Positions 21,001 through 24,000 of a stretch of 64,000 nucleotides of DNA are shown piece after piece. Every line of letters begins with the position of its first letter. The stretch's first letter is position 1. The position numbers are program-made. The DNA is from Pecten maximus (Eukaryota). Where the stretch lies: NCBI RefSeq assembly GCF_902652985.1, contig NC_047020.1:10168001-10232000 (forward strand), written 5' to 3'.

Positions 21001-24000
21001 CAACCCCAATGTCAGCACAATGTGTAGGATATCTCCTCTCATAGTCATTCATTACACATCTATTTCCTGTGTCCTTGACCTTATCAAACAGACAAGTGAC
21101 GGCACTCTCACTGAGGTCCTGCACATCTCCATATAGAATAGGTACTCTAAGCACACTATAATCTGTGGATCAAAGATGAAAAATGGGACCATTTAAAAAT
21201 AGTCTGTGTTGCTACCCTAAACATATTTCAATATTCATGAAATGATTGCATATGCTTAGCTATATGTATGCTGTAGGCCTATGTGGTGATTGGCAGAATA
21301 TCTCCTGATCACCCCCTACTCATAACACATGGGACAATGATTTAAGCAGAAGACTTACTTGATTTAATTGTACTACTATATCTCTTCAGATAGAAATAAA
21401 CCTGAAATAACATGTATCTGCCTTATGACATTGTGTAACTGCTTTAGATAATTTACCTTTACCATTATTTACCCATTCACCATCTTGTTTATTGTTCGTG
21501 TATTTACTTTTGGAGACTTCCAGAGTGACTAGTTCACCATCCCGTTTACTGTTAGTGTATTTACCTTTGGAGACTTCCAGACTGACCAGTTCACTATCCC
21601 GTTTACTGTTCGTGTATTTACCTTTGGAGACTTCCAGAGTGACCAGTTCACCATCCCGTTTATTGTTCGTGTATTTACTTTTGGAGACTTCCAGAGTGAC
21701 CAGTTCACTATCCCGTTTACTGTTCGTGTATTTACCTTTGGAGACTTCCAGAGTGACCAGTTCACCATCCCGTTTACTGTTAGTGTATTTACCTTTGAGG
21801 ACTTCCAGACTGATCAGTTCACCATCCCGTTTACTGTTCGTGTATTTACCTTTGGAGACCTCCAGAGTGACCAGTTCACTATCCCGTTTACTGTTCGTGT
21901 ATTTACCTTTGGAGACCTCCAGAGTGACCAGTTCACTATCCCGTTTACTGTTCGTGTATTTACCTTTGGAGACTTCCAGAGTGACCAGTTCACCATCCCG
22001 TTTACTGTTAGTGTATTTACCTTTGGAGACTTCCAGAGTGACCAGTTCACCATCCCGTTTACTGTTAGTGTATTTACCTTTGGAGACCTCCAGACTGACC
22101 AGTTCACCATCCCGTTTACTGTTAGTGTATTTACCTTTGGAGACTTCCAGAGTGACCAGTTCACCATCCCGTTTACTGTTTAGTGTATTTACCTTTGGAG
22201 ACCTCCAGAGTGACCAGTTCACCATCCCGTTTACTGTTAGTGTATTTACCTTTGGAGACTTCCAGAGTGACCAGTTCACTATCCTGTTTACTGTTAGTGT
22301 ACCGTATTTGACCTAATAAGGGCGCAGGGCGCGGGTAATTGACAGTGGGGGCGCCCTTATTAAGATTAGTTATTCTGAAGTTTTATGAAACAGACTATAC
22401 TTTATAGCAGAATACCCAAGGTTGTAGAAACGGTAAAATATTCAGTCATAAAAATATTCCAGATGAAGATATCTATTCATTATCATATATTAAGCTTAAA
22501 CATCACTTGAATACTCCTGTAAACTTGTAAACCATGCCAGCTGATCTTTAGACCAGAGAATGTGTGTTCCACCATTTATGTTCAAATGGAACTCTTTTGT
22601 GTTCTATTTATAGAAACAGGTGATTTCCCAGATCATATCAGACATCGTTTTCTTTGACCTAATAATTGATTTACAATGTCTTTTACTAGCTTTCTGTTCT
22701 GAACAAAAGTTATTTATCAACAAGAATGAAGTCTTTACTTATCTTCAAATAAAGATGGTAAAAATTATTATTTGTATGTGTGTTTAGTTTTGGGTGCTCT
22801 TTGCACTGACATGTCATCTGTAGCCTGTAGGAATACACAAAATGTGGCGAAAAACATGTGTTCCAGTTACTTAATTTGCTGAAGAAAATTGAACACATAA
22901 AGTAGCAAAATATTTCACATGAATTATTACTTTTGAACACCATTTTGACACTCAGTCAAAGATTTATTGCCTTGAAAAAAGGTAGGGGTGCCCTTATTAG
23001 GTCAAATACGGTATTTACCTTTGGAGACCTCCAGACTGACCAGTTCACCACCCCGTTTACTGTTAGTGTATTTACCTTTGGAGACCTCCAGAGTGACCAG
23101 TTCACCATCCCGTTTACTGATCCCATATTTGTTGAGGGGATTGGTAGAGGCATCCTCATTGTACGGAGGATTCTTCCCATCAAACACATAGTCTGTACTT
23201 ATGTACAATACCCATGCGCCAATATTCCCTGTAAATTTAAATGTAACAATAGGTAAAAACTGAAACACTAGTACTGTAGTCCTGTCTATAGATGTCCATA
23301 GCTGTTGACAGGACATTAAACTGTACAAAACCAAACCCAAGTACCATAGTTCTGTCCATAGATGTCCATAGCTGTTGACTGGACATTAATTAACTATACA
23401 AATCCAAAAACCTTGCAATATTGCAAGACTGAAGTAAAAATTAGAATTTCTATTTCAATGCATTCAAGTTTTATTAGCCCATCATCATCAGATGGTGGGC
23501 TATTCAAATAGCCCTGCATCCGTGGTCCGTCCGTCCCTCCGTCCGTAAACAATTCTTGTTATCGCTATTTCTCAGAAATTACTGAAGGGATCTTTCTCAA
23601 ATTTCATATGTAGGTTCCCCTTGGTGCCGAGTTATGCATACTGCATTTTGAGTCCAATCCGAAAACAACATGGCCAACAGGCAGCCAGATTGGATTTTGA
23701 TAATTGAAGTTTGTTATCGCTATTTCTCAGAAAGTACTGAAGGAGTCTTTCTCAAATTTCATATGTAGGTTCCCCTCGGTGCCTTGTTATGCATATTGCA
23801 TTTTGAAACCAATCAGAAAACAACATGGCCAACAGACAGCCATCTTGAATTTTGACAATTGAAGTTTGTTATCGCTATTTCTCAGAAAATGATTATGTTG
23901 AAAGGATCTTTCTCAAATTACATATGTAGGTTCCCCTCGGTGCATAGTTATGCATATTGCATTTTGAGACCAATCAGAAAACAACATGGCCGACAGGCAG

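What the first reader, a model, noticed from the sequence alone, without database searches (positions are those of the whole stretch)
21470..23119. MAT2B donor array is in frame and re-creates the YxxxK motif in each unit
Seen: the 57-nt unit is stop-free in the coding frame; native KYGISKRDGE is echoed as KYTNSKRDGE because intronic AAATA lies exactly 57 nt from exonic AAATA (likely microhomology seed). Use of the second donor (exon end 23019) would add 19 aa in frame. Established: YxxxK is the SDR-fold motif of RmlD/MAT2B. Inference: unlike the other three arrays this one can yield protein isoforms rather than NMD targets.
Basis: partly seen in the sequence, partly recalled or inferred. Interest (0 to 1): 0.68.

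Follow-up and report, generated by a model that had tools for sequence, protein, structure and literature searches.

The report
Scallop MAT2B splice-donor minisatellite
A 57-base piece spanning the end of one exon of a scallop gene has been copied about sixteen times into the following intron, an ordinary kind of repeat already known from several human genes, and only one extra copy could lengthen the protein.

Summary
The window is king scallop (Pecten maximus) DNA, not human. The exon at 23228-23076 (- strand) is 100% identical to the annotated 300-aa MAT2B-like protein. The 57-nt array is real. Its unit is the last 44 nt of exon 3 plus the first 13 nt of intron 3, so the donor AAG|GTAAAT recurs 16 times. 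Only donor 23019 is contiguous and in frame, adding 19 aa. Read-through beyond it stops after 5 codons, and the other 14 donors lie out of frame. Being in frame and echoing YxxxK are by-products of copying. Four of 6 frames of the unit are open, variation among units looks neutral at 7 nonsynonymous to 3 synonymous, and tandem arrays cover 27.8% of the window. The annotated protein uses the first donor. None of 45 database hits carries the extra 19 aa, and none of 32 homologues has an insert there. Homology starts at 23119, not at AAATA, so the microhomology idea does not fit. Closest precedents are the human F7, IFI6 and CBS junction minisatellites (PMC1557585). It is a new member of a known kind and of low interest. 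No RNA-seq was available.

The parts
20536..25248 (-). MAT2B-like gene of Pecten maximus. Five coding exons: 25248-25066, 24589-24475, 23228-23076, 21162-20969 and 20793-20539, plus the stop codon.
   Evidence: tblastn of the annotated 300-aa protein P0002 against the window. Boundaries were read from the sequence. Pfam RmlD_sub_bind 205.6 bits.
23076..23228 (-). Exon 3 (153 nt). It encodes residues 100-150, including Y134-G-I-S-K138. Its last 44 nt (23119-23076) are the exon-derived part of the repeat unit.
   Evidence: (100% identity over 50 aa).
23070..23078 (-). Authentic 5' splice site AAG|GTAAAT (exon end 23076), the one used by the annotated protein (EVSK|DYSV).
23019..23075 (-). Repeat unit U1 (57 nt), ending in the second donor (exon end 23019). 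It is the only unit contiguous and in frame with exon 3, and would add GKYTNSKRGGELVSLEVSK.
   Evidence: It matches the native exon part at 42 of 44 nt.
22302..23011 (-). 710-bp non-autonomous DNA transposon (MITE-like) inserted into unit U2. It has perfect 22-nt terminal inverted repeats (23011-22990 and 22323-22302). TA target-site duplications lie at 23013-23012 and 22301-22300. The longest open frame is 81 aa.
   Evidence: The flanks GGTAAATA / TACACTAACAG fit an uninterrupted unit with one TA in place of the two flanking copies.
21476..22301 (-). Rest of the array: the 3' part of U2, U3-U15 and a partial unit, with 14 further donor-like sites (exon-end positions 22250 to 21508). Twelve read AAG|GTAAATA and two read AAA|GTAAATA (21679, 21508). 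U4 is 58 nt.
21440..21475 (-). Degenerate tail of the array, with two more GTAAAT words (21472, 21456) and an exact AAAGGTAAAT. It may be the oldest unit and the ancestral start of the intron.
Evidence: (21 of 2000 shuffles reach the local score).
20969..21162 (-). Exon 4. Its acceptor (cacag|AT) is shared by all candidate donors, and it enters in phase 1 (G + AT = D151).

Best explanation
This is a selectively neutral or nearly neutral minisatellite. It was born by tandem duplication of a 57-nt segment spanning the exon 3 / intron 3 junction of the king scallop MAT2B-like gene: 44 nt of exon plus 13 nt of intron. It expanded into the intron to about 16.5 copies. A TA-targeting 710-bp transposon remnant later landed in the second intronic unit.

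Because each unit carries the junction, the donor AAG|GTAAAT is reiterated. The spliceosome uses the first, authentic copy, as the annotated protein shows. The others are silent pseudo-donors, as in the human F7 IVS7 minisatellite.

The period happens to be a multiple of 3, so the single pseudo-donor still joined to the exon (23019) could at most give a minor +19-aa form. That form would carry a second, misplaced copy of the YxxxK helix. The in-frame property and the motif echo are consequences of copying coding sequence, not signs of function.

Shown: the anatomy, the frames, the insertion, the neutral pattern and the use of donor 1 in the annotated model. Inferred: silence of the pseudo-donors, the order of events and neutrality.
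For: Array and unit structure.

Species and gene: (100% identity and coverage to the P. maximus protein).

The annotated protein joins 23076 to 21162.

MITE with perfect inverted ends and TA duplication. The flanks fit an uninterrupted unit, so the array predates the insertion.

Frames: only donor 23019 has offset 0 modulo 3 and lies before any stop.

Neutral pattern: there are 10 variable columns among the 13 units of 57 nt, 7 nonsynonymous and 3 synonymous. The possible single changes split 122 nonsynonymous to 42 synonymous. There is also one 1-nt insertion and two donors lost by G to A at position -1.

Four of 6 frames of the unit are open.

Tandem arrays cover 17,801 of 64,000 nt (27.8%) in 34 merged loci, and 1 of the 8 MAT2B junctions lies in one, so there is no enrichment.

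Two other genes in the window also have junction-spanning arrays.

Precedent: PMC1557585, of which I read the abstract, introduction and discussion. In F7 only the most upstream of identical donors is used, and in LMNB2 and PDGF only the authentic one.
Against: No transcript data were available, so use of donor 23019 is untested. The same paper reports that in IFI6 (6-16) and CBS the two nearest pseudo-sites are used as well, so silence is not guaranteed. Donor 2 is identical to donor 1 from -47 to +8 apart from two exon-side substitutions.

U3 is 44 of 44 identical to the exon part. That could reflect recent homogenisation, or constraint on something other than coding.

The AAATA coincidence, a 5-nt run inside a 13-nt comparison, is by my rough estimate a chance event of about 1%. 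My model leaves it unexplained.
Confidence: 0.75

Rival explanations
1. The second donor (23019) is really used at an appreciable or regulated level. The scallop would then make a +19-aa MAT2B isoform with a duplicated YxxxK helix and some function of its own.
For: The second donor has the same 9-mer and the same first 8 intron bases as donor 1, lies 57 nt downstream and is in frame. In IFI6 and CBS the nearest pseudo-sites are used (PMC1557585 introduction). Y, K and E of the motif are kept in U1.
Against: The annotated protein lacks the insert, and its name carries no isoform label. None of 45 hits carries it. None of 32 homologues has more than a 1-residue length change at this loop. Invariant G135 is T in the copy and D140 is G in U1. 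The insert would sit in a 4-residue helix-to-strand loop. The predicted 24-bp stem of the transposon ends starts at intron +6 of donor 2, which may hinder U1 binding; this is prediction only.
Confidence: 0.12
2. The reiterated donors act as an intronic splicing or RNA-processing element. For example, U1 snRNP binding sites might strengthen definition of exon 3, suppress premature cleavage, or tune MAT2B output through unproductive splicing.
For: Intron 3 holds 19 GTAAAT words. GT is kept in all 16 donor-like sites. The F7 work shows that such pseudo-sites are functional when unmasked.
Against: Nothing here needs it. Variation looks neutral. Two units have lost the -1 G. A transposon was tolerated inside the array. 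Such arrays are common in this window. [quoted passage not shown]
Confidence: 0.08
3. The array, its copy number or the insertion is an assembly artefact.
For: Tandem repeats are a known source of assembly error (general knowledge). The window has many arrays.
Against: The units carry ordered, distinct variants rather than collapsed identical copies. The insertion has clean inverted ends and a target duplication. There are no N in the window.
Confidence: 0.03

Closest known systems
Human F7 intron 7 37-bp VNTR (Borensztajn et al. 2006, PMC1557585; abstract, introduction and discussion read)
   Same: It is a minisatellite whose first monomer spans the exon-intron boundary, so the authentic donor is followed by identical pseudo-donors. 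In F7 only the most upstream one is used, which matches the annotated scallop protein using 23076.
   Different: The F7 monomer holds 4 nt of exon and 33 nt of intron, with 5-9 copies. Here it holds 44 nt of exon and 13 nt of intron, with about 16.5 copies and a period divisible by 3. The array is also interrupted by a transposon remnant. Splicing and polymorphism are untested in the scallop.
Human interferon-inducible 6-16 (IFI6) intron 2 minisatellite and CBS intron 13 31-bp VNTR (as described in PMC1557585; the original paper by Turri et al. 1995 is not held)
   Same: These are junction-spanning minisatellites in which the two nearest pseudo-donors are used as well as the authentic one.
   Different: Their use is shown by transcript analysis; none is shown here. 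In the scallop only one pseudo-donor is still joined to the exon. That the IFI6 forms are in-frame insertions is my recollection, not from a call.
Human LMNB2 (100-bp) and PDGF intron 4 (81-bp) junction minisatellites (PMC1557585)
   Same: They have long monomers, 10-18 repeats, and only the authentic donor is used.
   Different: They come from a different gene and taxon, and no transposon insertion is described.
TA-flanked (Tc1/mariner-type, Stowaway-like) MITEs (general knowledge, recalled)
   Same: The insert has perfect terminal inverted repeats and a TA target duplication, is 710 bp long and has no long ORF.
   Different: No second copy lies in the window. The family was not identified and genome-wide copy number is untested.

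Membership tests
Minisatellite spanning an exon-intron boundary (F7 IVS7 type) | Head-to-tail array of a unit of 10 nt or more | tested here: met
   TRF: period 57, 14.5 + 1.9 copies, 94-96% matches.
Minisatellite spanning an exon-intron boundary (F7 IVS7 type) | The first monomer contains the authentic exon end and 5' splice site | tested here: met
   Homology starts at 23119 inside exon 3, and the exon ends at 23076.
Minisatellite spanning an exon-intron boundary (F7 IVS7 type) | The donor sequence is reiterated in the following monomers | tested here: met
   16 sites were found: 14 read AAG|GTAAATA and 2 read AAA|GTAAATA.
Minisatellite spanning an exon-intron boundary (F7 IVS7 type) | Only the most upstream site(s) are used in mRNA | not testable with these tools
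   Only indirect evidence: the annotated protein uses 23076. No RNA-seq was available.
Minisatellite spanning an exon-intron boundary (F7 IVS7 type) | Copy number varies among individuals (VNTR) | not testable with these tools
   Only one haplotype is in hand.
MAT2B / RmlD-like extended SDR (PF04321) | Profile match above the curated cut-off | tested here: met
   RmlD_sub_bind at 205.6 bits against a cut-off of 27, over residues 4-295. Human MAT2B structure 2ydx matches at E 1.8e-93.
MAT2B / RmlD-like extended SDR (PF04321) | Y-x-x-x-K motif | tested here: met
   Y134 and K138 are invariant in 32 of 32 sequences and lie at the start of helix 133-148.
MAT2B / RmlD-like extended SDR (PF04321) | N-terminal glycine-rich dinucleotide-binding motif | tested here: met
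   TGASGLLG in P0002. T8, G9, G12, L14 and G15 are at least 90% conserved.
MAT2B / RmlD-like extended SDR (PF04321) | Binds the catalytic MAT2A subunit | not tested
   No complex was predicted and no assay was possible.
TA-flanked MITE (Tc1/mariner-type) | Terminal inverted repeats and a TA target-site duplication | tested here: met
   The 24-nt inverted repeat is 100% complementary and includes TA. The flanks were checked.
TA-flanked MITE (Tc1/mariner-type) | Short and non-coding | tested here: met
   710 bp, longest open frame 81 aa. That frame was not scanned against Pfam.
TA-flanked MITE (Tc1/mariner-type) | Many copies in the genome | tested here: inconclusive
   The only 2 matches to the inverted-repeat word in the window (up to 3 mismatches) are this element's own ends. 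The genome could not be searched.

The most novel reading that the evidence does not exclude
In scallops, whose genomes teem with minisatellites, arrays spanning exon-intron junctions may be a regular source of new alternative splice sites. This window has three in three genes: MAT2B donor, AMP-binding donor and ANAPC10 acceptor. On this reading the MAT2B array is caught at the stage where one in-frame pseudo-donor (23019) is used at a low or tissue-specific level. It would give a MAT2B form with a duplicated active-site helix on which selection could act.
Probability: 0.1. Interest if true: 0.45.

Novelty: new member of a known kind. Interest (0 to 1): 0.22.

Why it matters
This matters little as it stands. 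It is one more junction-spanning minisatellite, the first I know of in a mollusc. My searches listed no paper on one in bivalves, but each showed only the top 12 of 598 and of 39 papers holding the terms.

It could serve as a natural test of how an invertebrate spliceosome chooses among identical donors. In mammals that question was studied with F7. Here the spacing keeps the reading frame, so use of the second site would escape nonsense-mediated decay and be visible in RNA and protein.

It is also a warning for gene prediction in repeat-rich bivalve genomes. Arrays like this give long open frames, up to 308 aa in the array, and many decoy splice sites.

Tried and rejected
1. AAATA microhomology as the seed. 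Rejected on anatomy. The alternative suggested by the degenerate 3' tail is a CAGT word both at the exon-side start of homology and in the tail. It is only a weak inference.

2. Coding constraint on the units. Rejected: 7 nonsynonymous to 3 synonymous variable columns, against 122 to 42 possible changes.

3. Enrichment of arrays at splice junctions. Rejected for this gene: 1 of 8 junctions lies in an array, against 27.8% array coverage of the window. I did not count the junctions of the other genes.

4. Search for a deposited +19-aa form, using the contiguous 69-aa translation 23226-23020. There were 45 hits among 65 candidates, and none covers the extension. Two rows with 84% and 87% coverage (P0038, P0044) are gapped alignments running into the next strand.

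5. The listing of cluster members, to look for isoforms of the scallop proteins.

6. Turri et al. 1995 (PMC306954) is not held. I cite it only through PMC1557585.

7. Rfam over the whole window gave no match at gathering score.

8. Unit as a cassette exon. The stretch from the AG in ACAG to the next donor is 41 nt, not a multiple of 3, and the branch-point-like CTAAC sits next to that AG. I rejected this by inspection.

9. The spliced +19-aa protein was not assembled, searched or folded. Exons were handled one by one and the joined step was left out. The structural argument therefore rests on the model of the database protein P0002 and on alignment A1.

10. Orthologous introns of other scallops could not be examined.

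11. Paper supplements are closed, and none was needed.
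Full report
Origin of the window. The translation of 23226-23077 (- strand, 50 aa) is 100% identical over its full length to 'methionine adenosyltransferase 2 subunit beta-like [Pecten maximus]' (P0002, 300 aa). The next hits are other scallops: Mizuhopecten at 98% and Ylistrum at 90% (48 proteins at E <= 0.001 among 53 candidates). I therefore take the window for king scallop DNA, not human. It has no N. GC runs from 33% to 41% in 4-kb windows, and reaches 49% in the last one.

Gene model. tblastn of P0002 against the window, plus reading the boundaries, gives five coding exons on the - strand: 25248-25066, 24589-24475, 23228-23076, 21162-20969 and 20793-20539. 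The four donors are AAG|GTAATA, CAG|GTAAGA, AAG|GTAAAT and CAG|GTATAT. The annotated protein reads ...EVSK|DYSV..., so it joins 23076 to 21162. P0002 matches Pfam RmlD_sub_bind at 205.6 bits against a cut-off of 27. It matches the solved human MAT2B structure 2ydx at E 1.8e-93.

The observation. TRF reports a 57-nt array in two blocks: 23119-23011 (1.9 copies) and 22301-21476 (14.5 copies, 94% matches). On the gene strand each unit reads GTAAATACACTAACAG TAAACGGGATGGTGAACTGGTCACTCTGGAAGTCTCCAAAG. Its last 44 nt copy the end of exon 3 (23119-23076) and its first 13 nt are the start of intron 3. The donor therefore recurs. Sixteen sites match A[AG]|GTAAATA: 14 have G at position -1 and 2 have A (21679, 21508). 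Two further degenerate GTAAAT words lie in the tail at 21472 and 21456. The second donor (exon end 23019) is 57 nt after the first and would add GKYTNSKRGGELVSLEVSK in frame. The two AAATA words are 57 nt apart.

The two TRF blocks are one array split by an insertion. From 23011 to 22302 lies a 710-bp element with perfect 22-nt terminal inverted repeats, flanked by a TA duplication. The only two matches to the end word in the window are its own ends, against 0 expected. Its longest open frame is 81 aa. The flanks, GGTAAATA and TACACTAACAG, fit an uninterrupted repeat unit with one TA in place of the two flanking copies, so the array existed first. It counted (108 + 832 - 2)/57, about 16.5 units. 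Intron 3 is 1913 nt: 890 nt of array, 710 nt of insertion and 313 nt of other sequence.

The consequence for frames. Reading on from exon 3 past donor 23019 gives GKYRI and then a stop inside the insertion. The 14 downstream donors lie at offsets of 1 or 2 modulo 3 from the native donor. U4 has a 1-nt insertion, making it 58 nt, with stops in the unit phase. So 'in frame' holds for one extra donor only. Any mRNA made with a later donor would carry an early stop. Whether scallops degrade such mRNAs is my inference.

Is the in-frame, YxxxK-echoing property more than chance? A period divisible by 3 has odds of 1 in 3. The two other junction arrays I saw in this window have periods of 53 and 86. 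Four of 6 frames of the consensus unit are stop-free. Most of the echo is simply copied exon. Only K-Y comes from intron bases AAATAC.

Among the 13 units of exactly 57 nt there are 10 variable columns, 7 nonsynonymous and 3 synonymous in the unit phase. The possible single changes of the consensus split 122 nonsynonymous, 42 synonymous and 7 stop. So there is no sign of coding constraint. Units match the exon part at 39 to 44 of 44 nt. U3 is 44 of 44, and the 3'-most units are the most diverged.

Microhomology. Similarity between the exon and the array begins at 23119 (CAGT), where TRF also starts the array. The six bases between AAATA and that point match at 1 of 6. Slippage between the two AAATA words would make units that hold the exon's TGGGATC. 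No unit has it; all have CAC[T/G]AAC or, in U4, CACTAAAC. So the AAATA pair is not at the breakpoint.

The degenerate tail beyond the TRF end contains AAAGGTAAAT, a score reached by 21 of 2000 shuffles. It continues ...TTATCTAAAGCAGTTACAC, which aligns loosely with the unit's ...ACACTAACAGTAAAC. That hints that the ancestral intron held a CAGT word about 57-59 nt from the exonic CAGT. I rate this a weak inference. I leave the AAATA coincidence unexplained. By my rough estimate it is a chance event of about 1%, judged after the fact.

Would a +19-aa protein work? Y134, G135, K138 and E142 are invariant in 32 of 32 aligned homologues. The AlphaFold model of P0002 (mean pLDDT 96.1) puts the motif at the start of helix 133-148, followed by strand 153-157. 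The exon 3/4 junction after K150 falls in the 4-residue loop between them. None of the 32 homologues differs there by more than one residue. The added segment would be a near copy of that helix, with T in place of invariant G135 and, in U1, G in place of D140.

A catalytic motif acts through its position in the fold. A second copy hanging from this loop would not be in the nucleotide site unless it displaced the first. That is inference. I did not build, search or fold the spliced +19-aa sequence: exons were searched one by one and the joined step was left out.

Evidence on use of the second donor. The only deposited P. maximus protein uses donor 1, and its name carries no isoform label. A search with the contiguous 69-aa translation 23226-23020 found 45 proteins among 65 candidates. 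Close relatives cover 70-72% of it, which is the native 50 aa only. Two distant rows with 84% and 87% coverage are gapped alignments into the next strand. This is weak evidence, because the canonical protein is itself listed only from ncbi/uniref/nr and not from transcript assemblies.

A fold of the pre-mRNA stretch 23130-22250 (z = -2.8) pairs the two transposon ends in a 24-bp stem that begins at intron +6 of donor 2. That might disfavour U1 binding there. This is prediction only.

Context. TRF rows merge into 34 loci covering 17,801 of 64,000 nt, or 27.8%. One of the 8 MAT2B junctions lies in an array, which is no more than random placement would give.

Two other genes show the same kind of array. 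An 86-nt x 8.5 array (14442-15179, + strand) repeats the 3' splice site and the first ~33 nt of an ANAPC10 exon (Pfam E 6.9e-28). A 53-nt x 3.3 array (1825-1997, - strand) repeats the donor of an AMP-binding-like exon, which scores 28.7 bits, just under the cut-off of 29.9.

Comparison with what is known. Borensztajn et al. 2006 (PMC1557585; I read the abstract, introduction and discussion) describe exactly this class: minisatellites whose first monomer spans an exon-intron boundary. The class includes:
- F7 IVS7 (37 bp), where only the most upstream donor is used.
- LMNB2 (100 bp) and PDGF (81 bp), where only the authentic donor is used.
- IFI6 6-16 and CBS, where the two nearest pseudo-sites are used as well.

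The scallop array meets the three structural criteria of the class. The two behavioural ones, site usage and copy-number polymorphism, could not be tested. My literature searches listed nothing on such arrays in bivalves, but each showed only the top 12 of 598 and of 39 papers holding the terms.

Verdict. The array is real and correctly read, but it is an ordinary junction-spanning minisatellite in a repeat-rich genome, now split by a transposon remnant. One pseudo-donor could in principle add 19 aa. Nothing shows that it does, and the motif echo is a by-product. It is a new member of a known kind, with interest about 0.2.

Noticed in passing
window 22302-23011 (- strand of the gene): 710-bp MITE-like element with perfect 22-nt terminal inverted repeats and a TA target duplication, inserted in the second intronic repeat unit. 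It also has a subterminal GC-rich palindrome near one end. There is no other copy in the window.
   Followed up: partly
window 14442-15179 and exon about 15147-15311 (+): An 86-nt x 8.5 minisatellite made of the last ~52 nt of an intron (pyrimidine tract and CTGTAG acceptor) plus the first ~33 nt of an ANAPC10 exon (Pfam E 6.9e-28). This puts a row of decoy 3' splice sites upstream of the real one.
   Followed up: partly
window 1825-1997 (- strand): A 53-nt x 3.3 array repeating the exon end and donor (...CACATCTCAG|GTATGA) of an AMP-binding-like exon at 1862-2185 (28.7 bits, just under Pfam's cut-off). A near-duplicate set of the same open frames lies at about 4877-6595.
   Followed up: partly
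window, whole: Tandem arrays cover 27.8% of the 64 kb in 34 merged loci. The largest are 32877-35078 (46 nt x 48), 62001-64000 and 59913-61284 (56 nt), 46205-47910 (46 nt) and 17002-18457 (145 nt x 10).
   Followed up: partly
window 21389-22313, both strands: The 57-nt array yields long spurious open frames (308 aa on the - strand; 295 and 216 aa on the + strand), which could mislead gene finders.
   Followed up: yes
window 23090-23081 and every unit: Each unit holds the self-complementary 10-mer GGAGGUCUCC (with G-U pairs) just upstream of the donor. In the predicted fold the copies of the exon and of U1 pair with each other.
   Followed up: no
window 8944-10535 (+), 28983-30900 (-), 36219-37510 (+), 38403-39686 (-): Other coding remnants. 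There is a MULE transposase domain and a Ulp1-type peptidase fragment. There is a SWIM finger plus a DDE_Tnp_4/HTH_Tnp_4 transposase of 470 aa in one open frame. There is an ankyrin-repeat protein with a weak SOCS-box match, and a weak reverse-transcriptase match.
   Followed up: no
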